From assembly GCA_024682255.1 (NCBI GenBank), contig GCA_024682255.1_4716.1: a DNA stretch of 64,000 nucleotides. One strand, 5' to 3'. Numbering within the stretch: the first letter of the stretch is position 1; each line of letters opens with the position of its first letter. Positions 29,729 to 54,542 of this stretch are shown here, piece by piece. This DNA is from a phage. The position numbers and the translations under genes were made by a program. The notes below the pieces were generated by a model that searched no databases, had not been told where the DNA came from, and saw nothing but the letters and a program-made list of their open reading frames with translations.

Positions 29729-30264
29729 CTGTATACCTATAAATACCAATCTCTTGGGCGAATTTAGTTCTTATTCAACATAATCGTACTATTACCAGAA
29801 TAAGACTGAGATTAGATTGTTCAGATAAGGTCGTTGCTTGAAACGATCGTTTCAGCGCTCATCTTATCCCGGAGGCGACGATAGGCACATCACCTCCCGC
29901 TTGCGCTCTCACGCAAGAGCAGACTATATCACATCTCGTTTCAAACGGTGCTTCTTCAGCACCTCAACGAGAGTTCACTTCTTCCCAGCGCATCCAGCGC
30001 CATTCTCTTATCCAAGGAGAATGCCTCACTCGAGGGGTACAGGGGGATGAATCCCTTAGTCGTTGAACCTTTACCTTAGAACGCTTCACAGCGATCCTTA
30101 GGTACTTGGCTGCGGATTGTCCTTAAGCTATTATCTGTTTTTATACCATACCGTCTTTCTTTTCAGAATCCGTTTTGGTCGATAACAGCGATGGATGTCT
30201 TCGCAATTCAGTGAATCTCATCTACATGTCGCCACATAGACGGACCCTGCTATTAAAAGCGTTA
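29729..30264 (-). ncRNA. group I self-splicing intron (no ORF) in RNAP beta-like gene
   Basis: minus-strand P (AAUUGCGAAGA, 30198-30208), Q (AAUCCGCAGC, 30109-30118), R (GGUUCAACGACUAAGGGAUU, 30050-30069), S (GAUAUAGUC, 29922-29930) in canonical order; exon ends in U, intron ends in G. Confidence 0.8.
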
Positions 30265-33654: not shown

Positions 33655-35731
33655 CCTTTTCTTCGCCTCAGGTCGCTACGCTGAGACCGCCTGCGTGGAT
33701 ACGTACATCACAGGCTGCTTGCACTTTCATGCAAGAGGAGACTATATCAAACCGTCAGCTTCACCTTCTCGATCGTATCGAGAATGCGGTGCTGAAGTAT
33801 TCTTCAGCAGCACCTGCTACGGTAACCTACACTTCGAAGACGCTTGTCCTCTACAGGGTGGTAAATCCCTTAGTCGTTGAACCTGCGTTGTTTCACATTC
33901 TTGTTTGCAAGAATGCCGTATTGCTACGCAACAACCAGGCTGCTGATTGCCCATTATCACGCACCTTAGCACCGCTTACGCGGCTTTTCTTTCAGCCTAA
34001 GCCTCCGTGGGAGGTAATGTCTGATTAAATCAGACATCGCCAGGAGGTAGTGCATCTCAACTGTTGTTTCCGCCTTTCGGCACCTCATGGGTTGTTGAGC
34101 TTTAGGGGTTCCCAGCAATTCGTAGGTTTTTCAAGCACTCCCTTTCGGGAATACCGGACCATTACCCTTTAGCTAATTTATTTAAGTATCTGAAATCCCA
34201 CTTATCTTTGCGTCTATTTTCGCACTTAATAGCTTGGTTCTTTATTCTCCAAGCCACCTTTGTTTTAGGTAATTGGCTGTAATTGGCCGCTGACGCAGTA
34301 CCTAAAACAACGGTTACGGTACCATCGGGTTTAGTAATCTCTACAGCGCGATAATGCTTACGTAACACATTACGCCAATATTCACGGCGTTCTGGCTCAG
34401 CATACTCAAGCATATAACCGTTGGTATCGACCAGACCGTAACACTCGTTTAAACGAGAGGTAGCGGCCGGTCTACTAATACCGATTGCTTTAGCCGCGTC
34501 AACCACGGTTTTATACGGGGTTTCATTACCGTCTCTATCTACAACCACAATAAAATCTGGACGCGAATCGAGCAGCTGCTGTCTTCGTTCAAGGGCTTGT
34601 TGATGAAGCACCTTGTTAACATGTTCGAACCCGTAACCTTCTGGACCGCGCCACCCTGGATTGTTATTCGCTCGATAAAGTACCGTCGCTGATTTCACTC
34701 CAGTCTGACGTGACGCCTCGTTTGCACTATGAACAACCGTGGTAGAGCCGTCAGGGTGATATATCCGTATCTGGTTCATTATACCGGAACCAACAAAATT
34801 ACCATCAGCTGATTTAATATCCGGCCATGGTTGAGGATTATCCTTGAATTTAACCACCCAACGACTGTTAAACAATTTGACTTTCCGGGCATGTTTACCC
34901 ATTGTCGTATCCGTAACACCAGCTACAACAGAGGCTTGCGTGATACTCAGGTACTCAGTAACGGTATCGTCCCATGTATCCCAGAGCAGAACCGGTTTAT
35001 TGTCGTCGCGTAAACCGTGTTCGATAGCATGCAGGACATTACGACTTCTGGTTGCCCATTCAAGGTTGTCAAGAGAATAGTTCCACTTATCGGCATCAAG
35101 ATGGTTAACGTCCATCCTATCGACATCGGCTGGATACTCTCTCCACGCCAGCATTAGACAACGGTGTAATACCTTGCTACCGGCCTTCTGGCGACAATCA
35201 TGTTTCAAGCAGACAGTAACGTAACGGTTCGTTACGAAACACGGGCGACAAATGCTCCCGTCTTTTCTGTCCCTGATATCACCTACTTCGTTTATTACAT
35301 ATCTCGTCAGTCCTGGAATAACGCGATAGCCAGGATACTTAGCGATTTCATAAGCGGGCTCGAACCGATAGGATAAATTATCAACATCCCAGTTAGATTC
35401 GTCACCATCAACAAACATCGCTTTGACGTATTTCTGTGTTTCAATATCAACCAGGATGTTTTTGTGTGCGATACAAATCAATGCTGGGATATTGAATTCG
35501 CGACCGGCTAAGATAACCGTGTCGCCATCTCTCGGTACCTCGACGTGGGTATCGCGATACCGCAAGTTTCCATAGCCGTCTATTTCAATCCAGCTTAGAA
35601 ACGGAATAGATATAAATTCTTTTTCAGATACTCGCCATTTAAACATATAAACCCCTGTATAACCTTACTGTCACACTAAGAGGTTTATCTGTAAATTCTT
35701 ACAGAATGGCGTAATTTTACTAAAAGGGCCG
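33655..35731 (-). mobile_element. group I intron carrying an HNH homing endonuclease gene, inserted in beta-prime-like gene
   Basis: minus-strand P (AAUUGCUGGGAA, 34109-34120), Q (AAUCAGCAGCC, 33939-33948), R (33864-33883), S (33740-33748); HNH ORF upstream of core; 5-prime boundary by homology. Confidence 0.7.
34162..35646 (-). CDS. HNH homing endonuclease (HNH_3-type with NUMOD/IENR-like HTH modules), intron-encoded
   Basis: motif NHLDADKWNYSLDNLEWATRSRNVLHA; C-terminal AAKAIGISRPAATSRLN HTH-like repeats. Confidence 0.85.
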   Translation of the reverse strand: MFKWRVSEKEFISIPFLSWIEIDGYGNLRYRDTHVEVPRDGDTVILAGREFNIPALICIAHKNILVDIETQKYVKAMFVDGDESNWDVDNLSYRFEPAYEIAKYPGYRVIPGLTRYVINEVGDIRDRKDGSICRPCFVTNRYVTVCLKHDCRQKAGSKVLHRCLMLAWREYPADVDRMDVNHLDADKWNYSLDNLEWATRSRNVLHAIEHGLRDDNKPVLLWDTWDDTVTEYLSITQASVVAGVTDTTMGKHARKVKLFNSRWVVKFKDNPQPWPDIKSADGNFVGSGIMNQIRIYHPDGSTTVVHSANEASRQTGVKSATVLYRANNNPGWRGPEGYGFEHVNKVLHQQALERRQQLLDSRPDFIVVVDRDGNETPYKTVVDAAKAIGISRPAATSRLNECYGLVDTNGYMLEYAEPERREYWRNVLRKHYRAVEITKPDGTVTVVLGTASAANYSQLPKTKVAWRIKNQAIKCENRRKDKWDFRYLNKLAKG

Positions 35732-37240
35732 ATCACCGCCTAAACCGGCGAGGTATGGCGCAGGAACAATAGTCGTTTCTACGAACGAAGCATTAGGTAA
35801 CCAGTCGGGGTATTCCCATGCGATAAATCGTTCATCCGTTATTGGTTCCCAGTTACTATCCAGTTCGGTTTTCGGTTTTGCAGCGACGGTTGTACGCGCG
35901 TAACAGGTTAACGGGATAACGGATTGCATACCCGATACCGGATAACGTGTTACCATCGCAGCCAGGTTATTCCAGTACTTATATCCGGCGATATAGATAA
36001 GCTCGGTGTAAGTAATGGGGTGAACATCCGCACCAGGTTTATTCAACATCTCTGGGGGTAATTCACTCATACCACGGAATAACCGAAACGAATCGTTGTT
36101 CACATAGACGAGGCAAAGATAACGTCCATTGACCATGATAGGTTCATTACGCACACCAGGATCGCTTAAGGTGTTCAGTAAACGTTCGATACCGTCCCAG
36201 GTTGTAAAGTCATCGATGGTGTCTGGATCAAGCGTGACACGTTCACGTTCCATCGTTTCGGTATCGATAAGTTCAACTTCTGTAACATCACGGACAAATA
36301 TTTCCTGCAAAATCCCCGTACGTAACGCATGTTGCGTTACAGGGAGAGCAGCTTTACTCATCTGGTATAACCCTAACTGAACCGCGGTACAGGAAGGCTG
36401 GTTAGGCGACCCTAGTACCTCCGTTGTGGGGTTAATTGCCGAAATAACGTTACGGGTTGAGTTCCAAACGCGACGTGAACCGAACTTGCCTTGGAAGATC
36501 CCTTTCTTACCTTGGAACATATCCAACAACAAAGCGTAGATATCGTTAAATGTTCTCTGTAAGCTCCAGCGCTGGCCGTCGTAAACGGGATCAGAATAAT
36601 CTTTTAATCCATCAGGGACGGTGTTAGAAATTGCAAGGAAACGACGATACAACTCTGTGATTTCTTGCTCGCTTTCATACCCGCCTTCTTTTACTTCTAT
36701 TTCACGTAAGCCCGCAGGTAAAACCAGTAAGTGACGAGTCATCGCTTTGAACATGTTCTCTTCGACAACTTTAATTCGTAGCTCTCGTTGAGCTGAACCT
36801 GTTGAAACGAACTTGATATCCGCGACGTGTTGTGCAAAGAACCCATATCCTGTTTGTCCTGTTAACGCATCAGACGCAACGAAGTCGCGTTGTTCAGGAT
36901 CCCACCGAGCGTACGCCTTCCCCGACATGATATCGCCATAGAGGTGTTTTAGTCGAATGAGGCGATCGTAAATGACGGGATGCAGGATTTCAACCTTACA
37001 TTCAATCACCGCAAATCGACGGTCTCGATCTTCGCTACCCGCACTACCAAAGATGGTGTAAGAATAGAAACCATCATCGTGGAAATTACCGGTGCTTGGG
37101 TCACGGATGCTCATGCTCGTGATCTTGGGGAGAAAACGTAACTGCTGTTTATCGAGGTGTAAAATACTAATGTTAAACGGCTCTCTGACTTTAGCCATGG
37201 AGACACTCCTCTTTACCACCACCGGCTGCGGCGGTATCAT
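35732..37240 (-). CDS. RNA polymerase beta-prime-like N-terminal subunit, exon 1 (likely true start ATG at 37198; track frame continues to stop at 35720 inside intron)
   Basis: DGFYSYTIFGS ~ beta-prime DGLFCARIFGP; LLVLPAGLREIEVKEGG ~ [30 protein letters not shown] ~ NRAPTLHRLG; exon ends LAGLGGD before FDGD of exon 2. Confidence 0.75.
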
Positions 37241-37350
37241 CTGAACACACGAGAGACGTAATGGGTGATGGCGTCACCCATCGCTTCCTTGCTTGAGGCG
37301 AGGAAGTTATTAGGTTACGTACCTGCCTGATTTTATCAGGTGGGCGATGT

Positions 37351-40300
37351 GTGAAGTTACGCTTCAACATTATCAATGCCGAAGGTAAACTTCGTGCATC
37401 ACGTTCCAACGTAACATGGGAACGTATCGAACTGGAGGTATACATGGTAGATAAAACCCGTGTTGAGGGTGATGATAATTGGGATAACTGGGATGAAGAC
37501 TTCTCCCTGGATCTCGATTTCAACGAACCCAAAGACGATCGTAAACCGATAACACGCTTTGCGGTAGGCGCGGTTAAAGGTGCCGCTGAGGATCTTACTT
37601 CCTACGAAAGAATGAAGGAGATCGCCAGAAACGCGTTGCCTAAGGGCTACAGCGACGGTATGGATCTTATCGATTCCGCCGTCGGATCCACGAAGGAACT
37701 ATACAATGAAGCCGTTCGTGACGTTCTTCCTAAGGTCCAAAGCTCAAAACGGTTAGCCGCACAACTAACCAAGAAATACCGTGCGAGCATGCCCGATTTC
37801 TCAAAGAAAATTCTCGAGCAATGGGAGCGAGAAGCCAAGGAAGAAGACGAACGTAAACAAGCTGAAGAAACCCTTCGTCAACGCATGGCGAGCGCTGGGG
37901 ACGATGAGATCGCCCGCAAGGTTGCCGAGGCATTAGGTGAATCAGCAAACCAAAGCGCGGATCAGTTCGCTGAACAGCAAGCAAAAGAAAGTATCCGTGA
38001 CGATATCGCTGACAAACGGTACGCTGTAACCAACAAACAAATGAGTGCGATGCAAGAAGGCGTCGCCAAGATGGTTGGTTTCAACAATGAATTCGCTGCA
38101 CGCTACATGCGTAAAAGCCTGGAACTGAAATATCGTTCCTTAGCGATTCAACGTGCGAGTTTTGATCAGCATAAAAAGTTAGCCGAAGTCTATATCGGTT
38201 TATTACAAAACATCCAGAAGAATACGGCTTTACCTGATGCGGCTAAAGCGAAAATGTCGGAAGAATTCCGTCGTAGCGCATACCAACGCTTCTTTGGTAA
38301 TGCGTTAGATGCGATGGGTTCTTTCGAGAACCGTTTCTTTGCCGATGTTAAGAAGAACCTTGCCACCAACGCATTAGGTGCTTTAAAAGGCGTCGTATCT
38401 GGCGCAAACGATGCGTTATACGGTTTAAACGAAGCGCGTGACTCGATGTCCATGATGGACGGGATGGGGTCAGAAGGCGATATTAAGGAAATGCAAGGAA
38501 AGATGTTGGGTCAGTTCATTGGCTCAACTGTCGCCCCATGGATGGCTAATAAAGGCAGGATGGCGTTACGCGATTTAGCAAAACGTCACCCCAATGCTAA
38601 ATTCGCTAGCGCGTTAAAAGCCGTGGATCAAGGTGGTGAGGCTGCCGCTTACACGACGCGTAATCTCGGTAAACTGCTCCAGGAAGATATTCGTAAAAAC
38701 GAATTCAATCTTAGCGATCCGTTTTACAAGCAATTAATACGTGGCGCAGGGCGTTGGGCGTTCAACATGGACAGCGGACGTAACTTCCGTGTGATGAACG
38801 ACACCGCTGAAACACTGGCGGAGCAAACGTCTTTCGACGGTTTAACTTACCGCAGCATCAACGAGGTTATTCCTGGCTTTCTTGCACGCATTCTGAAAAG
38901 CAGTGAAGGTATCCGCACCGGAAACAGCGATCCTGACTACGAGGTCTATGACGGCATCAGCGGGCAATTCGTGTCTCAGCGCACGCGTGAACAAAGCGTC
39001 AACGACACGCTGTTTAACAAACGTTCGTTTGGTTATTACGCAAGCCGTTTCAATGAGGTCATCTCGGTCATCGATCCTGATAAGCAATTATCGGAAAAAG
39101 CCAGAAAGGCGCTGGCTAAGCAGTTGGCACGAGATAGCGACGCAAATATCGCATTCGACCCGGCCCGTTTTACGGATGAAAGCAACTTCGATCGTAGTAT
39201 TGACCGCGACGCTATTAAGGAACTTTCCACGTACTTTCGTGACCGTTACGGTATTCGTGATGATGTCAACGATAAGGGCGAACGTCATCAGGTCATTGGA
39301 AACCGCGGGCAATATTACACGGAACGTAACCGAGCTGATCTTCGCTACGGAAATCTGAAATCGTTACAGCCGGATATCCAGCGTAACCTTAACCTACTGA
39401 AACGTACTGGCGACGTCCAATATCTGGAACGTATCGGTATTGTAACGAGAAATAGCGACGGAAGTTACTCGGTTAATCACGATCGGTATTTCTCTGAAAT
39501 CGATCGGTACATCGACCGACCGGAGTACGCTGAACGTAGTGATGTTAATACGCGATTAACCGCTCAGGAAACAAGAGCGCTGGCGCTAGGTTATCGTGAT
39601 GCAAAACCATCAGCTGGTGACGTCCAAAATGCGGGTCTGCCGAACATCGATCGTAAGGCTGTTGGCGCAGTAACCGTTGATGAAAACATCGGCTACGATA
39701 AATGGTGGAACGATACAGGTGTTATCACCACATCGCTTGAAGAACAGAATCGAGCATGGCAAGAGCTTTATCTCGAAGCGTTGTCTGAAGCATCCGAACA
39801 ACGTGTTGAAATGCTTACGTTACTGAAAGCCATTTCTGAGAAAGACTGGTCTAATAACGTTTCGCTGGATGGTGTAGATGTACCTGAAGGTGCGGCACCC
39901 ATTTCATTTATCGATCGTGCCAAACAAAAACTCGGTACACGCAACCTCTTTAAAGGTGGTCGTAATCTTCTCTGGAAAGGAATTAAAAATACCGCACGTT
40001 TGGGTGTTAAAGGCGCGCGCTGGGGTGCAGAACGCACGTTGGGTAGTTTGGTAAATTCTGGCCGACGCATTATCGATTTCAACCGCTTCGTGTTCGGCGC
40101 ATTATCCAAGGTTGATCAGGTTCCGTTTGACATTTACGTTAAAGGGGAATCCCAACCACGCATATTGGCGGCCAAACTTCGTCAGGGGTTATACTTCGAC
40201 GAAGCGACAGGAAAAGCCGTAAAACGGATGAAGGATATCAAAGGCCCACTCGTTGATGTGGATGGAAATATCGTAATCAGCAACGAGGATATCGAGAAAG

Positions 40301-43300
40301 GGTTGGTCACTCGCGCTGGTCGAGCCTTTGAGAATTCAGGACTTAAGGCGTGGGCACGTGAAGGTCTTAATGGAATCACGACGGTATTAAGTCTCCCACG
40401 GATGTTAAAACGCGGTGCGGTCGAGATCTACAAACAGCTCGACAAGACGCCCGACGTTTACGTCAAGGGAGAATCAACGCCTCGTCTGTTGTCCATGGTG
40501 TTAGCAGCGGGTGGGTATTTCCGTCGGTCGGATGGACAAGTCATCAAAAATCTTGAAGATATCGATGGTGATGTTGTTGATGCACAAGGTAACGTCGTAC
40601 TTACGCTTGCCGACATGCAGAAAGGACTTGTCGATAAATACGGTAAAGCGATTCGTCGCTTAAAAGAAAAGCTCATCAACTTCGGTGTAAAAGCTTTTAC
40701 GTTACCGTTAACGCTGCTACGTAAGACAAAGGACATCCTTAAAGCCCTTCCAGGTAAAACCGTTAACGGTCTACGACGGATGGGATTAAACTTCCAATCA
40801 CCTGACGCATTACTGGTGGGAACAACGTCGAGCATGGTAGATCGCCTCGATGCTATTTACCAGCTTCTTGACCAGCGTATGCCGGGAGGTGATAAGGATT
40901 ACCGCGATTGGAATGGTGATGGTGTTCGAGAAGGATCGTTGGAAGACCTGAAACGTAAGCGTGAAGCCAAGGAAAACGGTAAGGATGAATCAGGCAAAGA
41001 TTCCAATAAAGGAGAAGAAAAGGAGAAGAAACGAGGGTTACTCGGAAGCCTTTTCGATATGCTCGGCGATACCGCATTAGGCAAACGACTCATGGCGAGT
41101 CCGCTTGGAAAAATTCTGGGTGGTCTTGGGGCGGTGTTAAGCGGCGGAGCATCGTTAACCGGATTGTTAGGCAAGGGTCTCATTAGTGGAACCGGCGCGC
41201 TGGTCAAGGGAGGACTAAGTGCGGCAGGATGGTTAGGACGTGGTGCGTTAATGGCGGGCGGAGCCGCATTGAACGCTGTTGGTGGTTTATCGGGATTAGG
41301 CGCATTCCTTATATCACCTGTTGGGCTTGCTATTGCAGGTGGTGCATTGGCTGCTTATGCAGGATGGAAGATCTATCAGCATTTCGCCGAGAAGCCTGAC
41401 CCGATGCAGAAGCTCCGTCTTATTGCATACGGTGCAAAAGGGGACGATAAAGACTTCAATAAGAAGCTGCTTGCGACAGAAACATACCTCACCGATCACG
41501 TGGTTATGACCGGGGATACCATCGGATTCGATCCGAAAGCGGATTCTGAAAAGATTCTCGAAATCTGGGAATTGTCCCTGGAAGACTCCGACCGAATGAA
41601 CGAATGGAAACGCTGGTATCTGCATCGTTTTATTCCTGTTTTCGCTCGTGCGTACAAACTCTGGAAAGAGCATATGCCGGACGAGAAGAAATACATGGAA
41701 ATGGATAAATATCCGAACGGTGAGAACAAAGTGAAATGGTCGGAAGCGTTTATCTGGCCTTCCGATAGTCCTGACGGTCCGTATTACGTCGAAGCTAACC
41801 CGTTGGGTTCTTCTGGTGCGACGCGTTATATTGCTGGTCAAGACGTCAAAACCTTGATGCTGAAACAACTCGAAGCCATCAAGAAAGAGTACCAGAATCA
41901 GATCAAACAATACACTCATGATGAGGCTATTGCTGATTGGTCACGGATGTCTGACACACAACGTAAATCCGTTGCGCCTAACGCATTACGTGGTCAGAAA
42001 GCGTCGTTACGTTTTAACGATAAACGTTACAACAGCGCTGGCGCTAAAGGACGACAGAAGCTTGACGCGACCGCGGTTATTGAAAGCGTAGACCGTCGTG
42101 GTAGAAAATGGGTTGCCGGTGGATACATCGATGAACTCACCAGTCTCCGTGTTCGTGCGTACGGTATTAAGGTTCCGTTGTTAAGTCAGATAAAAGTGCT
42201 GATGGAACTCGAAGACGCTGTAGAACCCGGCGTTGTCGCTGAAGGTAAAGGTGTTAAATACGGTGGCGATCTTGTTGCGCTCTACAAGAAATTCGCGACG
42301 AAATTCGGAAGAGACGTTAACAGCAAGCGGGATCAGGATATCTGGTTCGCTTGGATGAATAACCGTTTCCTACCCGTCTTTTTAACCTATTACCAACAAG
42401 TTAGCGAAATGGGCGGTCAAGGGCTTCTGTCCGACGTGGTACAGAACCTGAAAGACAGCCAACGTTGGGAAATCGGTGAAGCACTTGTCGCAACGCAATA
42501 CCGTGATGAGAAAGGTACACTGCAGCCTGTATGGTCCTGGAATAGTTGTGGTTTCTCCGGTACTGAAGCTAACACCACCAGCAGTTCAACAAAGAGCCAG
42601 CTCGATCTGTTAAAAGAATATGCGGATAAAGAGAAGGTTCGTGAGAAGAACGCGGAAGCATCGCAAGAGGATGCCGATAAATTATCGAAGATCCAAGAGC
42701 TGATGATGAAGCAGGCTGGGTACGAGAAGAAAGACGGTGTCTGGCAGAAGAAATCTCGCATTACCGGTGGGATGAGTAACTCCGAAGCGAATTACAACCC
42801 CAATAGGAATAAGGTCGGTGAAAGCAGCTTTACGGCTTCGGCTACGTCCAATGCGGGATTGGGATCAACCGGCGATCTTACTGGATTGCCTAACATGGGC
42901 TTACAGAAACCTGCAATGGGACCAGGTCCTGAAGCTGGACGTCGTGCGCTTGTTAAATCCGCTGTAAAACGCGGCATTACCGATCCGATGGAAATGGCCA
43001 TGTTCCTTGCGAACATCGAACATGAATCGGGGAACTACACTCACGTACGTGAGGGGAACTATAAGACACCGGAGCGTCTTAAACAGGTCTTCCCTTACAA
43101 ATTCCGTGATGTGCAGGATGCCGCACAGACGATCAGCATGGGGCCGGAGGCGGTATTCGAACGTGTGTACGGTAATCGTAAAGATCTCGGAAACACACAG
43201 AAAGGAGACGGGGCGAAGTATTTAGGACGTGGCTTCATTCAGGTTACCGGTAAAGCTAACTACGCTCGTCTGTCTAAGACCTTGAATAAGGATCTTGTCA

Positions 43301-44109
43301 GCGATCCGACCTACCTGGAAACGCCGGAAGGTGCGGCGGAAGGTAGTGTCGCGTGGTGGCTCAACCGAGGTAATGTATTACGCGATCCCGCAAAACGGGG
43401 TGATGTGCGCCAAGTTCGTTATCTGGTTAACGGTGGTTTTAACGGATTACGTGATGTTGAACAGCGTTCAGCTTATTGGATTCAGGCGGCTAAGAATGGC
43501 ACCCTGAAGAAAATGATGGACGAGTTATCGGGGTCAACATCGGACGATCAAGTTGAAGGACCGACCACTGCCGAACAGGTGAAGAACGAAGCAGCCCAAG
43601 AGGCAAACGGAACACCTGCTGTAAGCAACGATCCGCAAGCCCCAGTATCTTCTACTACCCCTGAAGCTAAACCGTCTGCGGCTGCCGGTACTGCTCCAGC
43701 ACCTGGAGAAGCATCACCAACGCCTGGAAGTTTCGAAACAGCAAAAGCCGCGGCAGGACAACCGACATCAACACCAGCACCTAGCGATTTGCCGTCAAAC
43801 CCGGGTGCAAATCGAGGGATATCGGTTCCGAATACGCCTGCACAGGTTGCGCAGTCTGCGACACAAACATCGGTTGCGAGCGAGAACTTCTACGGCAGCG
43901 CAGGTGAAATTCTCCGACAGCAGCTGACCACACAGCAGAACATCGAGAAGAACACCGGTAGAACGAATGAACTTATTTCGGAATTAATCCAAGCCGTTAA
44001 GGGTTCTTCTATCGGTAAGGGTTCTGCAGGTCCTTCTCAACAACAGACGATGTCGCTACCTAATCGTCCGCAAGGAATCTCTCCAACACGGACAAGGTAC
44101 GCACAGTAG
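37351..44109 (+). CDS. giant virion-associated protein with C-terminal GH19-lysozyme-like domain (tape-measure/ejection-type; likely true start ATG at 37444)
   Basis: 2252-aa ORF; C-terminal FLANIEHESGNY...GRGFIQVTGKANY...YLVNGGFNGL; Gly-rich hydrophobic segment; internal ~110-aa tandem repeat; GGAGGT SD before 37444. Confidence 0.75.
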   Translation: MKLRFNIINAEGKLRASRSNVTWERIELEVYMVDKTRVEGDDNWDNWDEDFSLDLDFNEPKDDRKPITRFAVGAVKGAAEDLTSYERMKEIARNALPKGYSDGMDLIDSAVGSTKELYNEAVRDVLPKVQSSKRLAAQLTKKYRASMPDFSKKILEQWEREAKEEDERKQAEETLRQRMASAGDDEIARKVAEALGESANQSADQFAEQQAKESIRDDIADKRYAVTNKQMSAMQEGVAKMVGFNNEFAARYMRKSLELKYRSLAIQRASFDQHKKLAEVYIGLLQNIQKNTALPDAAKAKMSEEFRRSAYQRFFGNALDAMGSFENRFFADVKKNLATNALGALKGVVSGANDALYGLNEARDSMSMMDGMGSEGDIKEMQGKMLGQFIGSTVAPWMANKGRMALRDLAKRHPNAKFASALKAVDQGGEAAAYTTRNLGKLLQEDIRKNEFNLSDPFYKQLIRGAGRWAFNMDSGRNFRVMNDTAETLAEQTSFDGLTYRSINEVIPGFLARILKSSEGIRTGNSDPDYEVYDGISGQFVSQRTREQSVNDTLFNKRSFGYYASRFNEVISVIDPDKQLSEKARKALAKQLARDSDANIAFDPARFTDESNFDRSIDRDAIKELSTYFRDRYGIRDDVNDKGERHQVIGNRGQYYTERNRADLRYGNLKSLQPDIQRNLNLLKRTGDVQYLERIGIVTRNSDGSYSVNHDRYFSEIDRYIDRPEYAERSDVNTRLTAQETRALALGYRDAKPSAGDVQNAGLPNIDRKAVGAVTVDENIGYDKWWNDTGVITTSLEEQNRAWQELYLEALSEASEQRVEMLTLLKAISEKDWSNNVSLDGVDVPEGAAPISFIDRAKQKLGTRNLFKGGRNLLWKGIKNTARLGVKGARWGAERTLGSLVNSGRRIIDFNRFVFGALSKVDQVPFDIYVKGESQPRILAAKLRQGLYFDEATGKAVKRMKDIKGPLVDVDGNIVISNEDIEKGLVTRAGRAFENSGLKAWAREGLNGITTVLSLPRMLKRGAVEIYKQLDKTPDVYVKGESTPRLLSMVLAAGGYFRRSDGQVIKNLEDIDGDVVDAQGNVVLTLADMQKGLVDKYGKAIRRLKEKLINFGVKAFTLPLTLLRKTKDILKALPGKTVNGLRRMGLNFQSPDALLVGTTSSMVDRLDAIYQLLDQRMPGGDKDYRDWNGDGVREGSLEDLKRKREAKENGKDESGKDSNKGEEKEKKRGLLGSLFDMLGDTALGKRLMASPLGKILGGLGAVLSGGASLTGLLGKGLISGTGALVKGGLSAAGWLGRGALMAGGAALNAVGGLSGLGAFLISPVGLAIAGGALAAYAGWKIYQHFAEKPDPMQKLRLIAYGAKGDDKDFNKKLLATETYLTDHVVMTGDTIGFDPKADSEKILEIWELSLEDSDRMNEWKRWYLHRFIPVFARAYKLWKEHMPDEKKYMEMDKYPNGENKVKWSEAFIWPSDSPDGPYYVEANPLGSSGATRYIAGQDVKTLMLKQLEAIKKEYQNQIKQYTHDEAIADWSRMSDTQRKSVAPNALRGQKASLRFNDKRYNSAGAKGRQKLDATAVIESVDRRGRKWVAGGYIDELTSLRVRAYGIKVPLLSQIKVLMELEDAVEPGVVAEGKGVKYGGDLVALYKKFATKFGRDVNSKRDQDIWFAWMNNRFLPVFLTYYQQVSEMGGQGLLSDVVQNLKDSQRWEIGEALVATQYRDEKGTLQPVWSWNSCGFSGTEANTTSSSTKSQLDLLKEYADKEKVREKNAEASQEDADKLSKIQELMMKQAGYEKKDGVWQKKSRITGGMSNSEANYNPNRNKVGESSFTASATSNAGLGSTGDLTGLPNMGLQKPAMGPGPEAGRRALVKSAVKRGITDPMEMAMFLANIEHESGNYTHVREGNYKTPERLKQVFPYKFRDVQDAAQTISMGPEAVFERVYGNRKDLGNTQKGDGAKYLGRGFIQVTGKANYARLSKTLNKDLVSDPTYLETPEGAAEGSVAWWLNRGNVLRDPAKRGDVRQVRYLVNGGFNGLRDVEQRSAYWIQAAKNGTLKKMMDELSGSTSDDQVEGPTTAEQVKNEAAQEANGTPAVSNDPQAPVSSTTPEAKPSAAAGTAPAPGEASPTPGSFETAKAAAGQPTSTPAPSDLPSNPGANRGISVPNTPAQVAQSATQTSVASENFYGSAGEILRQQLTTQQNIEKNTGRTNELISELIQAVKGSSIGKGSAGPSQQQTMSLPNRPQGISPTRTRYAQ

Positions 44110-44120
44110 TCATTAGTTAA

Positions 44121-44139
44121 GGGCGGGAGATTCCCGCCC
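44121..44139 (+). terminator. short hairpin gggcggga/tcccgccc between giant gene and next gene (possibly attenuating)
   Basis: inverted repeat. Confidence 0.35.
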
Positions 44140-44158
44140 TCTTCTTGAGGAATGTTAC

Positions 44159-46300
44159 ATGGGTATTCTTGTTCAAAACGCCCTAATAACCAAACAAGCG
44201 TTTTTATTACCTGGCGATAGCAGCACGCTTAGTGCTGACATGATTAAAGCGAGACATACACCGTATTCCTACGATAACGTCGATGATACCACCTTAGGTG
44301 GGAACTGGGTGCTTAACCCGCCACCGCAATATACTAAATTTGCCGACATCAAAGAACGCCGACGTGCGGTTATGCCGGGATCAACGGGCATGGGCCGAGG
44401 CTATAGTGAAAGCATTAACAGCTTTAAAGAAGTCGTTACGTTACGATTCGGTAAACCTCGCTTTACAGGCGCAAGTATCTTCTTTACCGATTTCTACGAC
44501 GCCGATGTTGCCGTAACGGTTAAAACCGGTCGCGATCCCGGTATTCTTTATTACGCAGCCAAAGCGTATACCACCGTTCTTTCTTACCTCACACCTCTAC
44601 CTTACCTGTATATGGTTGGACGTATTGGTCGATATTTCCTGGGTAAGCCTACCAGTCAATATTACTATCAAGTACCAACCATGCACGTGTATTGGGCGTC
44701 TTTCCAGACGCTGGTAAACCAAACAGCGATAAACATGGGTCTTATCGCCGGTGCCGGTAAAGATAAAGGCTATGTGGAAGAAGGGGGTACCGTACTCCAC
44801 CAATATTCAATCGGTGGTCAGAACGTTGAAGAATTCATCAACTACGCCTCTAAGACGCTACCGGGGATTTATAAGAAAGGTGGTGGGATCGATATCTATC
44901 AGATCGCAACACGCCGTCAGCGTATACAGAACGCATGGGTACGTCGTATTCAATCCATGATGGAAAACGATTACTCGTCTTACGAGGAGTTCTGGAACGA
45001 TCTTGATAAACGACTTGATAGCGGAGCATTTCCATCGGATGTAACCGGCCGTACGCTAACGCAGTATCTCGCCGATACGCAGAAGTCTGCTGTTTACAGT
45101 GCGACAGCCGGTGATAATAAACAAACGATGGACGACCTTTTATTTGGAAGAGCCTCGTACACCAATAAAGATGCCGATGCCAACTTCAATGTCTCGGCGG
45201 CTACCTCCGACGGCGGTACGTCAACACAGAGTCAGGGTACAACAGCCAATGTCGGTAATTCGACATCAGGGACAACGCAGGCTTCAACAGCAGCATCCAC
45301 GGCTGGAGGCGCGAACGTACAGAGCAAAGGAATCGGGCAAACGAACGCAGCCGAAGAAGCTACGTTTCTTGATCTGATGGATGCTGAACTGGCTGACGGT
45401 GCTCAGTTCATCAGTTTTCGAGTCGATTCTGTCACCAGTGTAACCGAAACGTTTTCAAACAGCGCTTCAGAAAGTTCAATCGCACAGACGATGAACAGCC
45501 GTGCACAAGCGAACATCGAACGTCGTTTCACCCTCTCCGGTGGTAATACAGGTTGGGCTGTACTAGACGAAGCCATCAAAGCCGGTTCCGATCTCGTCAA
45601 TGGTGCTATTTCCGGGATGGGTCTGGATGGTATTTTTGGTGCCTTCATGGGTTCCGGCTTCGCAGACATTCCGAAATTCTATTCTGGGTCGTCAGTAAGT
45701 CTACCGCGTGCCGATCTGACGATGGAATTGCGTTCCTGGAGTGGGGATCGCTGGTCGATCTTTACGAACCTCATGGTACCTCTTTTAGCCATTCTTGCGG
45801 GTGGTTTACCTCAGGCTACCGGTAAATCGTCCTACGGGATGCCGTTCATGTGTGAGTGTTATATTCCCGGTAAAGTCCAGATTAAAATGGGTCTTATCGA
45901 TAACATCACTGTGACGCGTCATGTTGGAAACGTGCCATCAACACGCGAGCGGTTACCGTTGGGTATCGATGTCAGCTTCAGTGTTTATGACCTGTCGTCC
46001 ATCGTCGCCATGCCGATCACAACGACAGCCGCATCGATCGCAAAACTGGATCCTCGTGGCTTCTTAAGTGATCTTCTTGCTGATGATACCCCACTCAACA
46101 ACTATCTTGCTGTATTATCGGCATTGACACTTACGGAACAAGTTTACATGATTCCGGATTTAAGTCGTCGCATGCATAAAACCATGGCCGATATCGATAG
46201 TTTCTGGAGCAAAGGTAATTTTGCTAGCTGGTTGTCTGACACCATGCCAGGCAGGATAGCATCAGGGCTGTTATGGAAACGCACAGAACGACCGTTCTGA
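44159..46300 (+). CDS. hypothetical protein, probable virion protein
   Basis: 713-aa ORF with Ser/Thr/Gly-rich central region; co-oriented with giant virion gene. Confidence 0.5.
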   Translation: MGILVQNALITKQAFLLPGDSSTLSADMIKARHTPYSYDNVDDTTLGGNWVLNPPPQYTKFADIKERRRAVMPGSTGMGRGYSESINSFKEVVTLRFGKPRFTGASIFFTDFYDADVAVTVKTGRDPGILYYAAKAYTTVLSYLTPLPYLYMVGRIGRYFLGKPTSQYYYQVPTMHVYWASFQTLVNQTAINMGLIAGAGKDKGYVEEGGTVLHQYSIGGQNVEEFINYASKTLPGIYKKGGGIDIYQIATRRQRIQNAWVRRIQSMMENDYSSYEEFWNDLDKRLDSGAFPSDVTGRTLTQYLADTQKSAVYSATAGDNKQTMDDLLFGRASYTNKDADANFNVSAATSDGGTSTQSQGTTANVGNSTSGTTQASTAASTAGGANVQSKGIGQTNAAEEATFLDLMDAELADGAQFISFRVDSVTSVTETFSNSASESSIAQTMNSRAQANIERRFTLSGGNTGWAVLDEAIKAGSDLVNGAISGMGLDGIFGAFMGSGFADIPKFYSGSSVSLPRADLTMELRSWSGDRWSIFTNLMVPLLAILAGGLPQATGKSSYGMPFMCECYIPGKVQIKMGLIDNITVTRHVGNVPSTRERLPLGIDVSFSVYDLSSIVAMPITTTAASIAKLDPRGFLSDLLADDTPLNNYLAVLSALTLTEQVYMIPDLSRRMHKTMADIDSFWSKGNFASWLSDTMPGRIASGLLWKRTERPF

Positions 46301-46319
46301 TATTCACCGCATAAACCCC

Positions 46320-46351
46320 CCTCTCCCTTCCCTGATGGGTCGGGAGAGGGA
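46320..46351 (+). terminator. hairpin ccctctccc/gggagaggg followed by ATTATG
   Basis: inverted repeat after stop of 44159-46300. Confidence 0.5.
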
Positions 46352-46356
46352 TTATG

Positions 46357-47424
46357 TTAACCTAACGTCACTGTCGGTAAATCAGGATAAAGTTTCTTCA
46401 AGCCTGCCATCGTGGTGGTAGTCGTATAATTCTTACCCATCACAGCAAGAGATGCGTATTTCCTACTGCGGGAGAAAAGGGAATAAAACCCACTGGATGT
46501 TTCCATCCACATCGTGAGGAGTTCTGCATCCTTACCGTGATAGTTCGTTTTACCCCATCCGGGTTTAAACGCATCGGCAAAATCAATTAAACGCGAGGCT
46601 TCAGCGTCGTATTCTTTAAGGGTAAGGTACGATGGGATACGGTAGTTACGAAACAGCAACGTAATGAGTTCCGGAACAACGCTACGGGCACGTTCAGCTG
46701 TAATGAGTTCGGTGATCACAGCAGCTGTACGGAAATCGCCGTTAAGACCAACGCTGCTTAACGATTCCGCTAAAGTGGTTGCCATCGCCACTTTATCCTC
46801 CGCTGACCCGGAGTCATACAGACTACGTACATCGATATAGTTGCCTGCTAATGCGGCTTGACGAATCAACGACGTGACAACCGTTCGGTTCGTCTTATAG
46901 TCGTTGTAGTTGAATTCGGTTCGCGTTTTCCCTTGGTCGTCGAGATACCGATCAACGATTGTTGATAGTTTATAATACTCATCGCCCGACATCAGACTAT
47001 CGAGAAGCTTAACGTTTCCATCTTTATCGATAAGCTTCCCTAACGCACCATTGGATTGCTGGTTAATGGTGCTGTAAATCTGATCTTTTACTTGCGATAG
47101 AATGTTATCGGTTGACGATATATTCAGGCCGGTAACATCTTTGATCTTATTCATCAATGCGTTTTCATTCAGGGAGATTTTGCCTCCGCTGATATCGATG
47201 AACGAATTAAGATCGCTTATGGAAATCAGGTTTCCTGTTAACGCCGATAATGTACTATTGATACTGTTCGTGATACTGCTACGAAAACTGGTTAACGCAT
47301 CCGCCGCCGAAACAGCGGTACCGCTAACCGCTTTAAGGAGCGTATCACGCCCTGTCGAAAAATCGCTGGTGATGGTTTTGATCTTGGACGTATCTATACT
47401 CGGCAGTTTGTCGTAAAGACTCAT
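46357..47424 (-). CDS. hypothetical protein (start at ATG with AGGAGG SD)
   Basis: ORF track 46357-47475; CAGGAGGACGTG-ATG context. Confidence 0.5.
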   Translation of the reverse strand: MSLYDKLPSIDTSKIKTITSDFSTGRDTLLKAVSGTAVSAADALTSFRSSITNSINSTLSALTGNLISISDLNSFIDISGGKISLNENALMNKIKDVTGLNISSTDNILSQVKDQIYSTINQQSNGALGKLIDKDGNVKLLDSLMSGDEYYKLSTIVDRYLDDQGKTRTEFNYNDYKTNRTVVTSLIRQAALAGNYIDVRSLYDSGSAEDKVAMATTLAESLSSVGLNGDFRTAAVITELITAERARSVVPELITLLFRNYRIPSYLTLKEYDAEASRLIDFADAFKPGWGKTNYHGKDAELLTMWMETSSGFYSLFSRSRKYASLAVMGKNYTTTTTMAGLKKLYPDLPTVTLG

Positions 47425-47462
47425 CACGTCCTCCTGAAAAAGAAAAAAGAAATACGGCATAA

Positions 47463-47490
47463 AGCCTACCCACACAATGGTGGGTAGGCT
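47463..47490 (-). terminator. hairpin agcctacccac/gtgggtaggct followed on minus strand by TTTATGCCG then T-rich run
   Basis: inverted repeat and motif. Confidence 0.55.
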
Positions 47491-47506
47491 AAGATTAACA
47501 TCGATG

Positions 47507-48064
47507 TTAAACTTCTTCGTTTTCTGAACCTAATGATTCAGCATCTGGATCGTCAACAGGAATTGTTGCGTCAAAATACCGTTTCGTATGCGTGGTTGTA
47601 TATCCTACGCTATCTGTGATAGAAATCGTAAACGTGACTTCCCTTGCACGGATTAAGCGTAGTTTATTCATGAAGTTACGGAACGGCATCGATCCCCGAT
47701 TCAACTCCTTAATGACGTTTCCCCGAATACTGGAAATGTCTTTATTCGTTTTATCAGGATGTCGTTTCTTCACATCACGCATGTGTCGGGTAATATACGA
47801 ATTGAGCTGATTTGCGCCGATCCCTCTCTCCGTATAAATCTGCAACAGGAACTCCGTAAGGAAATCCTGTCTACCCGTAGGCGTCCAGAAATTGTTACCG
47901 TGATTGTAGTTAGTCGCTCGTCCTCGATTGCTTTGAGGATTTTCATCATCGCTCTCGTCACGACGCTTAAGCGGATTAATGCGCGCGCGAAAAGAGACTT
48001 CATTATATTTATTTGTCATAATACACCAGTGTACTGACTGAGTGCGAAGGTTAGGAGTTCGCAA
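47507..48064 (-). CDS. hypothetical protein
   Basis: 185-aa ORF. Confidence 0.45.
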   Translation of the reverse strand: MRTPNLRTQSVHWCIMTNKYNEVSFRARINPLKRRDESDDENPQSNRGRATNYNHGNNFWTPTGRQDFLTEFLLQIYTERGIGANQLNSYITRHMRDVKKRHPDKTNKDISSIRGNVIKELNRGSMPFRNFMNKLRLIRAREVTFTISITDSVGYTTTHTKRYFDATIPVDDPDAESLGSENEEV

Positions 48065-48531
48065 CAGTCTCTCGCTAGTTTCCTTGTTTTGCGTAATCCA
48101 TAAGCCGCATCCAAATCGTCACGTTCCGCCAGCGCGTCTAACCACGTCGCAAGTATGCGTCCATACTCGATAACGTCACGCATGAGAACGTCGAACTGGA
48201 TAACACGACCATCGGCATCAGCAAGCCAACGATTGAATGTGATTTGTGGTGCTAGTATTGCATATGTTCTCTCCTCTAATGCTATTATGTTTATGTTGCC
48301 TTCGTTATCGAACGCTTGATGCCAACGGCGAAGGTCAAGCATCAACGACTCAGCGTCCATATACCACAACGGTAAATACGTTTTACGTGCAACGCGTATA
48401 TCGTAGATGTTGTGAACCCAGGACGTTGTTTTATAAAGCAACAAGAGTTCGTTTAACCGTTGCCTATCATCTTGAAACGTCTTCCTTTTATAACGTTGGA
48501 ACGCACGCCTCAAGAAAAAGCGATGTAACAT
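48016..48531 (-). CDS. hypothetical protein
   Basis: 171-aa ORF. Confidence 0.45.
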   Translation of the reverse strand: MLHRFFLRRAFQRYKRKTFQDDRQRLNELLLLYKTTSWVHNIYDIRVARKTYLPLWYMDAESLMLDLRRWHQAFDNEGNINIIALEERTYAILAPQITFNRWLADADGRVIQFDVLMRDVIEYGRILATWLDALAERDDLDAAYGLRKTRKLARDCCELLTFALSQYTGVL

Positions 48532-48663
48532 GGCATCACCTATGTATCATTCTTGCAGGCATCAATGAAGCCATCACAAGAAGGTAACGTTTACGTCACC
48601 TCCATGACAGTCATCATGAAGGTAATATAGTCCTGTTATTTTTTTCAATACGGAGAATGTAAA

Positions 48664-49293
48664 ATGAGCGAATATGGTGTTGCCCCCGTAGATGATGAAC
48701 CGCAAGAAGCACCTGATAAATTCGAGGTCCGTCTTGACGAAACCCGTAATATCCGTCAACGATTTATTCAACGTCTTGAAATGCTGTTAGATAGCGAATT
48801 CAAAGATTTCGAGCTTAATCCTGGCGCTGATAACAAAGCCATCGTCGACGTCGAAAACGTCGACCGAATAGGTAAGCTGTTGTTGAAATCGTTGGGTGAT
48901 AACGACAAAGTCGACTTAACATTGAAACGTATCAGTGCTGACCAGGCTATGAACGACAGCGCATTGAAAACAGCACAGGCCCTAACCGAAACCATGCTGC
49001 GCCGCTTAGGTCAGATGGATCAACATCCTCTCGCAGCAGGGGCTGTTTATGAAGGCGAAGTCGTGAAGCCAGTCACACCTGAAGAACGTGATCGTCGACT
49101 TGGTTTTGCGTCATTGGAAGAGTTCGATAGCAAGGAGTTTTCACCAGGCGTTCTCATCCAGGGACGTGTCGAAGAAACCAGTGATGCTTTCTACGCTAGA
49201 ATGGCTCAACTGACGGCGTCGGTTCGTGAGGAGGTATCTCAGAAGATGGCTGCAGATCATCAGTCTTCGGAGGCGTCACACGAGGAGGAATAA
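48664..49293 (+). CDS. hypothetical acidic protein
   Basis: 209-aa ORF, ACGGAGA SD. Confidence 0.45.
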   Translation: MSEYGVAPVDDEPQEAPDKFEVRLDETRNIRQRFIQRLEMLLDSEFKDFELNPGADNKAIVDVENVDRIGKLLLKSLGDNDKVDLTLKRISADQAMNDSALKTAQALTETMLRRLGQMDQHPLAAGAVYEGEVVKPVTPEERDRRLGFASLEEFDSKEFSPGVLIQGRVEETSDAFYARMAQLTASVREEVSQKMAADHQSSEASHEEE

Positions 49294-50688: not shown

Positions 50689-50690
50689 AA

Positions 50691-51365: not shown

Positions 51366-51374
51366 AAACGTCTC

Positions 51375-51716: not shown

Positions 51717-51769
51717 GGGATAATCATCCCAGTAGCGTGATCCTGATACCCCTACACGATAGGGTTCGC

Positions 51770-52090: not shown

Positions 52091-52102
52091 TTATTTAGCC
52101 TT

Positions 52103-54534: not shown

Positions 54535-54542
54535 CATAATAA

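What the first reader, a model, noticed from the sequence alone, without database searches (positions are those of the whole stretch)
37351..44109. 2252-aa virion protein with internal ~110-aa tandem duplication, Gly-rich hydrophobic block and C-terminal GH19-lysozyme-like domain
Near the C-terminus, FLANIEHESGNY...GRGFIQVTGKANY...YLVNGGFNGL resembles the catalytic core of family-19 glycoside hydrolases and phage lysozymes. Upstream is a Gly/Ala/Leu-rich stretch (GLLGSLFDMLG...GGALAAYAGW) typical of membrane-inserting tape-measure or ejection proteins. Two consecutive units starting DIYVKGESQPRIL... and DVYVKGESTPRLL... (roughly 40120-40790) show a recent internal duplication. Size and architecture resemble the giant inner-body/tail lysin protein of phiKZ-type phages, here with a different lytic domain class. 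The track's GTG start at 37351 is probably wrong; ATG 37444 has a GGAGGT SD.
Basis: partly seen in the sequence, partly recalled or inferred. Interest (0 to 1): 0.55.

Follow-up and report, generated by a model that had tools for sequence, protein, structure and literature searches.

The report
Giant tail-internal lysin of Goslar-like phage
This 2,252-codon gene is the near-identical copy of phage Goslar gp204, the counterpart of phiKZ gp181: a low-copy giant tail protein (probable tape measure) carrying a GH19 lysozyme that opens the cell wall during infection, so it belongs to a known kind and is ordinary.

Summary
The window comes from a close relative of the E. coli jumbo phage Goslar (96% nt identity). 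ORF 37351-44109 is 98.3% identical to Goslar gp204 ('putative chitinase'). It is collinear with phiKZ gp181 and SPN3US gp239, the giant tail lysin and presumed tape measure protein of chimalliviruses.

- **GH19 domain (aa 1853-2063):** confirmed by sequence, predicted fold and catalytic residues E1892/E1901/T1966. phiKZ and SPN3US carry an SLT domain at the same position.
- **~110-aa tandem repeat:** real (38% identity, E 4e-21) but ancient, not recent. The same ~70-aa beta-rich module occurs 1-6 times in almost every family member.
- **Gly-rich hydrophobic block (aa 1229-1339):** a conserved family feature.
- **Start codon:** comparative data favour ATG 37444 over the annotated GTG.
- **Location:** published proteomics on Goslar gives about 3-8 copies per virion, and the SPN3US homologue is missing from tailless particles. 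The protein is therefore in the tail, not the inner body.

The family is already known. What remains open is where the protein sits in the tail and what its internal modules do.

The parts
37351..44109 (+). ORF as annotated (GTG start, 2252 aa). It is the orthologue of Goslar_00232 / RefSeq gp204 (YP_009820915.1).
   Evidence: 96.2% nt identity, 98.3% aa identity
37434..37446 (+). GGAGGT Shine-Dalgarno (37434-37439), a 4-nt spacer, then ATG 37444-37446. This is the probable true start (Met32 of the annotated ORF, giving a 2221-aa product).
   Evidence: TGGAGG and the ATG are conserved in all six aligned loci. The 47%-identity relatives have an in-frame stop 9 codons upstream and no alternative start. 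All 16 diverse homologues begin at the equivalent Met. The PHROG profile begins at about residue 35.
37351..37443 (+). 31-codon 'extension' of the annotated ORF, probably 5' untranslated leader. It is 100% nt-identical in the window, Goslar and an 89%-identity relative, although the sequence just upstream varies.
   Evidence: 63 nt of it are deleted (in frame) in the 88%-identity relative L003.
37474..40992 (+). N-terminal family-defining region (aa 42-1214), matching PHROG 3201. It includes a hypervariable stretch at about aa 800-900.
   Evidence: E 5.2e-294; collinear with gp181; 34-40% identity at aa 851-900 in relatives that are about 89% identical overall
40114..40440 (+). Beta-module repeat, copy 1 (aa 922-1030). 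It has a ~70-aa beta-rich core (aa ~925-992) followed by a low-confidence helical linker.
40441..40746 (+). Beta-module repeat, copy 2 (aa 1031-1132; core aa ~1033-1102).
41035..41367 (+). Gly/Ala/Leu-rich hydrophobic block (aa 1229-1339), with uncharged stretches at aa 1255-1274 and 1298-1339. It is a candidate membrane-inserting segment.
   Evidence: The position is conserved in 86 of 120 family members.
41398..41667 (+). Second duplicated module, copy A (aa 1350-1439; LRxxAYG ... WxxWxxxRFxPVF).
42130..42402 (+). Second duplicated module, copy B (aa 1594-1684).
   Evidence: (hhalign probability 99.4%, E 1.7e-21)
42907..43539 (+). GH19 (endolysin-subfamily) catalytic domain, aa 1853-2063. 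Proton donor E1892 (codon 43024), base E1901 (codon 43051), water-coordinating T1966 (codon 43246).
43612..43905 (+). Ala/Pro/Ser/Thr-rich low-complexity linker (aa 2088-2185). A peptide from it (aa 2133-2155) was seen in Goslar virions, so the C-terminal part is retained in the particle.
43906..44106 (+). C-terminal tail (aa 2186-2252) ending in a Pro-containing basic motif that recurs at the C-terminus of family members.
44159..46300 (+). Downstream gene: the tail-tube initiator / spacer ring protein (Goslar gp203, phiKZ gp182). This is context that places the giant gene in the tail-hub module.
   Evidence: PDB 11lx_H E 0; 9xqs_K PHIKZ182 E 2e-67
35720..37240 (-). Divergently transcribed upstream gene: a virion RNA polymerase beta-type subunit. 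The same arrangement is found in phiKZ-like phages and SPN3US.

Best explanation
The gene encodes the chimallivirus giant tail-internal protein (Goslar gp204, phiKZ gp181, SPN3US gp239). This is a low-copy structural protein that most likely lies inside the tail tube as the tape measure / ejection protein and carries the virion's cell-wall-cutting enzyme.

**Shown**
- It is a collinear orthologue of gp181 and gp239.
- Its Goslar twin is in virions at about 3-8 copies.
- Its gene abuts the tube-initiator ring gene.
- It contains an intact GH19 endolysin-type catalytic domain in place of the SLT domain of gp181.
- It has a conserved Gly-rich hydrophobic block.

**Inferred mechanism**
- During tail assembly a trimer or hexamer is anchored by its C-terminal part at the hub (gp203 / gp62 / gp48 region). 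The N-terminal ~1,200 residues run up the tube lumen.
- On sheath contraction the spike dissociates and the protein is expelled C-terminus first.
- The GH19 domain locally hydrolyses peptidoglycan.
- The hydrophobic block inserts into the inner membrane to help form the conduit through which the DNA and the co-injected proteins pass.

The beta-module repeats and the second duplicated module are family-specific parts of unknown role. They may be spacers or plugs that fit the unusually wide tube lumen.

The confidence of 0.75 is for the whole statement. Identity as the gp181/gp204 orthologue and virion-associated GH19 lysin is about 0.95. The tape-measure and tube-lumen mechanism is about 0.6.
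For: **Identity and homology**
- 96.2% nt and 98.3% aa identity to Goslar gp204.
- Family: PHROG 3201, E 5.2e-294.
- BLASTP to a phiKZ-type gp181: 24-25% identity over aa ~35-1850, E 7e-45 and 6e-38, including both repeats and the hydrophobic block.
- SPN3US gp239 is collinear, E 7e-19 and 8e-10.
- Lytic domain at the same place: SLT at 1885-1978 in gp181 and 1983-2071 in gp239; GH19 at 1853-2063 here.

**GH19 domain**
- phmmer to solved GH19 endolysins: 9eoi 2.2e-24, 7r6s 6e-23, 4ok7 3.9e-19.
- AF2 pLDDT >90 for 196 residues.
- All Foldseek PDB hits with E <= 0.001 are GH19 enzymes or close homologues of the same fold.
- E1892/E1901/T1966 correspond to ELYS E49/E58/T130 of the GH19 Engineering Database (PMC8547705).

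**Virion and tail location**
- Goslar virion mass spectrometry: 34 peptides, estimated 3.4-8.0 copies, labelled 'Tail protein' (bioRxiv 10.64898/2026.04.21.720040 Table S4).
- SPN3US gp239 is called the tape measure protein and is absent from tailless particles (PMC5105663).
- phiKZ gp181 has measured muralytic activity (PMC5380687).

**Synteny**
- The next gene is the tube initiator / spacer ring protein.
- From my own knowledge, this parallels the T4 gene order 29-48-54.

**Hydrophobic block**
- It is conserved between the repeats and module 2 in 86 of 120 homologues.
Against: - Neither 2026 cryo-EM atlas (phiKZ, PMC13250141; Goslar preprint) models or mentions this protein in its main text. 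No PDB chain matches aa 32-1860. Its position in the tail is therefore still indirect.
- At about 1.5 A per residue the whole protein would be roughly twice the tube length (46 rings x ~37.7 A, about 1,735 A). Only part of it can act as a ruler.
- The residues-per-ring ratio differs between Goslar and phiKZ: about 26 versus 29 for the segment before the hydrophobic block.
- Muralytic activity and membrane insertion are untested for this protein.
- The Pfam GH19 model scores below its gathering cut-off (17.9-23.6 versus 25.5 bits).
Confidence: 0.75

Rival explanations
1. It forms the needle-like cell-puncturing spike of the baseplate, as T4 gp5 does. This was the older model for phiKZ gp181.
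For: A review table lists gp181 as a 'needle-like cell-puncturing device, putative trimer' on the baseplate (PMC5380687). The low copy number (about 3-8) would also fit a trimer.
Against: The solved baseplates assign the spike and cap to other proteins: Goslar gp13/gp48, and phiKZ gp164/gp163.1/gp101. All density in the hub and inner baseplate is accounted for. There is no OB-fold or beta-helix signal, and no PDB sequence match for aa 32-1860.
Confidence: 0.04
2. It is a tail fibre or host-recognition protein, as RefSeq and the PHROG 3201 label say.
For: The RefSeq product name is 'tail fiber protein' and PHROG 3201 is annotated 'tail fiber protein'.
Against: - No fibre, receptor-binding or carbohydrate-binding domain was found.
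- The protein has a lytic domain plus a hydrophobic block.
- Its gene lies in the hub/tube-initiator module.
- Homologues are called tape measure proteins in experimental papers.
- In Goslar the filament/host-recognition role is proposed for DUF7941 proteins.
Confidence: 0.03
3. It is a head (inner-body) ejection protein that travels with the DNA and cuts the wall from the periplasmic side. It is not a tail component.
For: Chimalliviruses package many proteins in the head and inject them. The gene is adjacent to virion RNA polymerase subunit genes, whose products are packaged in the head.
Against: - SPN3US gp239, a collinear homologue, is among the proteins missing from tailless, DNA-filled particles.
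- The Goslar mass-spectrometry table labels it a tail protein at about 5 copies, unlike inner-body proteins present at 50-2,000 copies.
- It has no PF12699 domain.
Confidence: 0.05
4. It is a tail-internal lysin but not the length ruler. Tail length would be set by another protein or by the sheath/tube, and gp204 would be only a cargo or plug with lytic and membrane functions.
For: The protein is about twice as long as a helical ruler for this tube would need to be. The residues-per-ring ratio differs between Goslar and phiKZ. Beta-module copy number (1-6) does not correlate with protein length (r = -0.04).
Against: Neither structural paper reports another tape-measure candidate. The gene position and stoichiometry are those of a tape measure protein. 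Experimental papers on phiKZ and SPN3US use that assignment.
Confidence: 0.2

Closest known systems
Escherichia phage vB_EcoM_Goslar gp204 (Goslar_00232, QBO64023.1 / YP_009820915.1)
   Same: It is the same gene: 98.3% aa identity over all 2252 residues, with identical flanking genes. It was detected in virions at about 3-8 copies.
   Different: There are 37 amino-acid substitutions scattered along the protein. The record annotates the same, probably too-long, GTG start.
Pseudomonas phage phiKZ gp181 (structural peptidoglycan hydrolase; presumed tape measure)
   Same: Similar size (2237 versus 2221-2252 aa). Collinear homology over about 1,800 residues. Two beta-modules, a Gly-rich hydrophobic block and two copies of module 2. 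The lytic domain sits at about residue 1,880-2,050. The gene lies between virion RNAP subunit genes and the gp182-type ring gene.
   Different: The lytic domain is SLT/GH23-type in gp181 and GH19 here. Overall identity is only 24-25%.
Salmonella phage SPN3US gp239 (tape measure protein)
   Same: Collinear homologue with the same synteny. It provides experimental evidence of tail association.
   Different: 2372 aa, with an SLT domain.
GH19 phage endolysins (SPN1S endolysin 4ok7; P. aeruginosa GH19 endolysin 9eoi; KTN6 gp46 8p8e)
   Same: Same fold, same catalytic Glu-Glu-Thr residues and same endolysin-subfamily signature residues.
   Different: Those are free ~200-aa lysis enzymes made late to burst the cell. 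Here the domain is embedded in a 2,200-aa virion protein and would act from outside at entry. There is no separate peptidoglycan-binding module.
Tape measure proteins with lytic and membrane-active parts (T5 pb2; T4 gp29 for gene order). This comparison rests on my own knowledge.
   Same: The logic is the same: a long tail-lumen protein with a hydrophobic segment and a C-terminal wall-degrading domain, expelled at infection. In T4, gene 29 is followed by the tube-initiator genes 48 and 54.
   Different: No detectable sequence similarity. This protein is 2-4 times larger and has extra family-specific globular modules.

Membership tests
phiKZ gp181-type giant tail lysin family (PHROG 3201) | Collinear sequence homology over the N-terminal ~1,800 residues | tested here: met
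   PHROG 3201 E 5.2e-294. BLASTP to gp181 E 7e-45 and 6e-38. BLASTP to SPN3US gp239 E 7e-19.
phiKZ gp181-type giant tail lysin family (PHROG 3201) | Gene lies between divergent virion-RNAP subunit genes and the gp182-type tube initiator/spacer gene | tested here: met
phiKZ gp181-type giant tail lysin family (PHROG 3201) | Peptidoglycan-degrading domain at about residue 1,850-2,100 | tested here: met
   GH19 at aa 1853-2063. Family members carry SLT, GH19, M23, VanY or CHAP domains at this end.
phiKZ gp181-type giant tail lysin family (PHROG 3201) | Low-copy structural component of the virion tail | not testable with these tools
   Literature only: Goslar gp204 has 34 peptides and about 3-8 copies; SPN3US gp239 is absent from tailless particles.
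phiKZ gp181-type giant tail lysin family (PHROG 3201) | Measured muralytic activity | not testable with these tools
   Shown for gp181 only.
Glycoside hydrolase family 19, endolysin (ELYS) subfamily | GH19 alpha-helical two-lobe fold | tested here: met
   AF2 pLDDT >90 for 196 residues. Foldseek PDB: 7r6s 8.7e-9, 9eoi 8e-8, 4ok7 2.4e-7, and GH19 chitinases 2dbt / 1wvu / 2cjl.
Glycoside hydrolase family 19, endolysin (ELYS) subfamily | Catalytic proton donor Glu, catalytic base Glu 9 residues later, and water-coordinating Thr (ELYS E49, E58, T130) | tested here: met
   E1892, E1901 and T1966. Both Glu and the Thr are invariant in 7 GH19-bearing homologues.
Glycoside hydrolase family 19, endolysin (ELYS) subfamily | ELYS-specific residue pattern I33, R109, G118, L173 | tested here: met
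   I1876, R1943, G1954 and L2009, mapped by alignment to 4ok7 / 9eoi. The mapping of R109 and L173 depends on the alignment chosen.
Glycoside hydrolase family 19, endolysin (ELYS) subfamily | Pfam PF00182 score above the gathering cut-off | tested here: not met
   17.9 bits (whole protein) and 23.6 bits (fragment) against a cut-off of 25.5. Only the GRGxIQ(L/V)T core matches. Five more distant family members do pass. Direct matches to solved GH19 endolysins are strong. I therefore read this as a limit of the chitinase-centred model.
Tail tape measure protein (functional class) | Occupies the tail-tube lumen, and its length determines tail length | not testable with these tools
   It is unmodelled in both cryo-EM atlases. 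Two data points (Goslar 46 rings, phiKZ 43 rings) do not give a constant residues-per-ring ratio.
Tail tape measure protein (functional class) | Three or six copies per virion, and a gene next to the hub / tube-initiator genes | tested here: met
   Synteny was tested here. The copy number of 3.4-8.0 comes from the literature.
T4 gp5-type spike lysozyme | OB-fold plus beta-helix spike, forming the baseplate needle | tested here: not met
   No such domains were found. The spike in Goslar and phiKZ is built by other proteins.

The most novel reading that the evidence does not exclude
Chimalliviruses inject their DNA into a membrane vesicle (the EPI vesicle) thought to derive from the host inner membrane, and nobody knows what makes it. 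The family-wide Gly-rich hydrophobic block of this tail-lumen protein would be the first phage part to reach the inner membrane. Together with the two adjacent conserved modules of unknown fold, it could be the element that remodels the membrane and seeds or gates that vesicle, rather than merely forming a pore. The papers I could search on the EPI vesicle do not mention this protein.
Probability: 0.08. Interest if true: 0.7.

Novelty: already known. Interest (0 to 1): 0.18.

Why it matters
For annotation, three corrections follow:
- 'Tail fiber protein' (RefSeq) and 'chitinase' are misleading names.
- The start codon in the Goslar records is probably 31 codons too early.
- The enzyme is a peptidoglycan-cutting GH19 lysozyme, not a chitinase.

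For biology, this is the largest protein of these phages. Its phiKZ counterpart appears to be essential. It is one of the few major virion components still missing from the 2026 atomic models of phiKZ and Goslar.

The domain map given here could guide focused cryo-EM and mutagenesis. It comprises two beta-modules, a membrane-like block, a second duplicated module, a swappable lytic domain and a basic C-terminal tail. None of this changes the picture of how such phages infect.

Tried and rejected
- **Pfam and NCBIfam on the whole protein:** nothing above threshold. There was a sub-threshold GH19 hit and chance hits to Talin_R4 and DfrA26.
- **N-terminal peptides in the Goslar mass-spectrometry supplement:** I looked for peptides that would decide the start codon. 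None were found for either start, but the stored file is truncated, so this says nothing.
- **Ruler arithmetic:** comparing protein or segment length with tube rings in Goslar and phiKZ gave no constant ratio. Beta-module copy number does not correlate with protein length.
- **'Recent duplication':** considered and rejected.
- **'Inner-body protein':** considered and rejected.
- **Structure prediction:** The N-terminal ~900 residues and modules 2A/2B were not modelled.

Full report
**What the window is.** Megablast of the ORF and of the rest of the window finds only Escherichia phage vB_EcoM_Goslar, a nucleus-forming jumbo phage (Chimalliviridae), at 95-97.5% nucleotide identity and in the same gene order. 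ORF 37351-44109 corresponds base for base to Goslar_00232 (GenBank 'putative chitinase', COG3179) and RefSeq gp204 ('tail fiber protein'). The proteins are 98.3% identical, with 37 scattered substitutions.

**Observation check.**
- The ORF (GTG start, 2252 aa) and every quoted motif are at the stated places.
- The two consecutive units (aa 922-1030 and 1031-1132; nt 40114-40746) align at 38% identity, E 4e-21. The Smith-Waterman score is 180 against 31 +/- 5 for shuffles.
- The Gly/Ala/Leu-rich block (aa 1229-1339) holds the hydrophobicity maximum of the protein (Kyte-Doolittle 1.91). It has two uncharged stretches of 20 and 42 residues.

**The lytic domain.**
- Pfam's GH19 model only reaches 17.9-23.6 bits, below its cut-off of 25.5.
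- PHROG 181 (endolysin) matches aa 1866-2087 at 2.7e-52.
- phmmer against solved structures gives GH19 endolysins at 2e-24 to 1e-17, and true GH19 chitinases at about 0.003-0.008.
- An AlphaFold2 model is confident (pLDDT >90 for 196 residues) over aa 1853-2063.
- Foldseek against the PDB gave 16 hits at E <= 0.001. Those whose entries state a family are GH19 endolysins or chitinases, and the rest are their close homologues.
- Using the GH19 Engineering Database numbering (PMC8547705), the proton donor, base and water-coordinating residue are present as E1892, E1901 and T1966.
- The four endolysin-subfamily signature residues map to I1876, R1943, G1954 and L2009. The two Glu and the Thr are invariant in GH19-bearing relatives.
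- The domain is therefore a peptidoglycan-directed GH19 lysozyme, not a chitinase.
- It is followed by an Ala/Pro/Ser/Thr-rich linker and a basic tail. A peptide from that linker was seen in Goslar virions, so the C-terminal part is not removed.

**The repeat is old and family-wide.**
- Relatives only 47% identical already have both copies.
- An HMM of the unit finds it in 116 of 120 homologues: one copy in 23, two in 70, three in 10, four in 11, five in 1 and six in 1. The spacing is about 117 residues.
- A profile search of 1.84 billion representative proteins finds 1,168 clusters at E <= 0.001. Nearly all of the top 150 are proteins of about 1,600-3,900 aa with 2-6 copies around residue 700-2,000.
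- AlphaFold2 predicts each unit as a ~70-residue beta-rich core (pLDDT 81-91) followed by a low-confidence helical linker.
- The DNA identity of the two cores is 55%. 'Recent duplication' is therefore not supported.

**More anatomy.**
- A second ancient duplication lies after the hydrophobic block: aa 1350-1439 versus 1594-1684 (LRxxAYG ... WxxWxxxRFxPVF).
- It shows 28% identity, E 5e-5, and a Smith-Waterman score of 68 against 30.7 +/- 4.8 for shuffles.
- Profile-profile comparison across the family gives probability 99.4%, E 1.7e-21. 106 of 120 homologues have 1-3 copies.
- In 86 of 120 homologues the hydrophobic peak lies between the last beta-module and the first copy of this module.
- The family architecture is: N-terminal ~900 residues, then 1-6 beta-modules, then the Gly-rich hydrophobic block, then module 2 (usually two copies), then the lytic domain, then a low-complexity linker, then a basic C-terminal motif.
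- The lytic domain is exchangeable. Precomputed Pfam hits in homologues include SLT (most of them), GH19, M23, VanY and CHAP.

**Relation to phiKZ gp181 and SPN3US gp239.**
- A phiKZ-type gp181 (2237 aa) aligns collinearly from residue ~35 to ~1850, including the repeats and the hydrophobic block. It has an SLT domain at 1885-1978.
- SPN3US gp239 (2372 aa, SLT) is likewise collinear.
- In all three phages the gene is flanked by divergent virion RNA polymerase subunit genes on one side. On the other side is the gene for the ring that sits under the tail tube.
- Here that downstream ORF (44159-46300) matches PDB 11lx_H, 'Tail tube initiator complex protein gp203', and PHIKZ182.

**What is known experimentally (literature).**
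- phiKZ gp181 has strong muralytic activity and was once proposed to form the puncturing needle (PMC5380687).
- The 2026 structures show the spike and hub are made of other proteins. They do not model or mention gp181 or gp204 in the main text (PMC13250141 and bioRxiv 10.64898/2026.04.21.720040).
- Consistent with that, aa 32-1860 have no PDB sequence match.
- Goslar virion mass spectrometry lists gp204 as a 'Tail protein' with 34 peptides and an estimated 3.4-8.0 copies.
- SPN3US gp239 is called the tape measure protein and is absent from tailless particles (PMC5105663).

**Start codon.**
- The annotated GTG (37351) gives a 31-residue extension.
- ATG 37444 has GGAGGT four bases upstream.
- TGGAGG plus the ATG are conserved in all six aligned loci.
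- In the two 47%-identity relatives an in-frame stop lies nine codons upstream, with no alternative start.
- An 88%-identity relative has lost 63 nt of the extension, in frame, but keeps an upstream in-frame ATG. It therefore does not decide the matter.
- All 16 diverse homologues inspected start at the equivalent Met (MAK... followed by an acidic run).
- The PHROG profile starts at about residue 35.
- I put ATG 37444 at about 0.8.
- The 93-nt extension is 100% identical in the window, Goslar and an 89%-identity relative, while the adjacent upstream sequence varies. That would fit a conserved leader or promoter element, but I did not test this.

**Mechanism (inferred).**
- A trimer or hexamer in the tube lumen, anchored by its C-terminal part at the hub, would be expelled when the sheath contracts.
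- The GH19 domain would cut the peptidoglycan locally, and the hydrophobic block would enter the inner membrane.
- The N-terminal ~1,200 residues alone would span the ~1,735 A tube at 1.45 A per residue. The remaining ~1,000 residues must be housed as folded modules.
- The ~68 A lumen reported for phiKZ might allow that.
- The ruler role itself is unproven, because the residues-per-ring ratio is not constant between Goslar and phiKZ.

**Verdict.**
The 'different lytic domain class' is a common variant among jumbo phages of enterobacteria, Aeromonas and Vibrio.
- The gene is an already-annotated member of a known family, so interest is low.
- The residual value lies in three things: the corrected start, the corrected product name, and a domain map of a large virion protein that is still structurally unplaced.

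Noticed in passing
window 29749-30295 (minus strand; Rfam hit 29900-30266): A group I intron (RF00028, 56.3 bits) sits in a 547-nt stretch that has no counterpart in Goslar, which has 41 nt there. The stretch lies inside the orthologue of Goslar_00228, a large gene next to the virion RNA polymerase subunit genes. This phage therefore seems to carry an extra intron relative to Goslar.
   Followed up: partly
window 33718-34180 (minus strand): A second group I intron (RF00028, 57.9 bits), annotated in Goslar as Goslar_00229. It lies between two ORFs (the orthologues of Goslar_00230 and Goslar_00228) that may be exons of one split gene.
   Followed up: no
window 37351-37443: This 93-nt stretch just upstream of the probable start is 100% identical in the window, Goslar and an 89%-identity relative, although the sequence immediately upstream (37320-37345) varies. 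It could be a conserved leader or promoter element for this late gene.
   Followed up: partly
window about 39750-40050 (aa ~800-900 of the ORF): A hypervariable segment just before the first beta-module. It is only 34-40% identical at aa 851-900 in relatives that are about 89% identical overall, and 60-62% at aa 801-850.
   Followed up: no
homologues P0006, P0055, P0056, P0062: Family members are deposited under bacterial names (Caballeronia arationis, Paraburkholderia spp.) on contigs of 144-493 kb. One is named 'cell pole-organizing protein PopZ'. These are probably jumbo-phage genomes sitting in bacterial assemblies, with misleading product names.
   Followed up: no
window 59238-64000: The match to the linear Goslar record runs to its last bases (237303). 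Only 76% of window 44110-64000 is covered by that place, and a second match place exists in the same record, probably at its start. If so, the window crosses the arbitrary ends of the deposited sequence.
   Followed up: no
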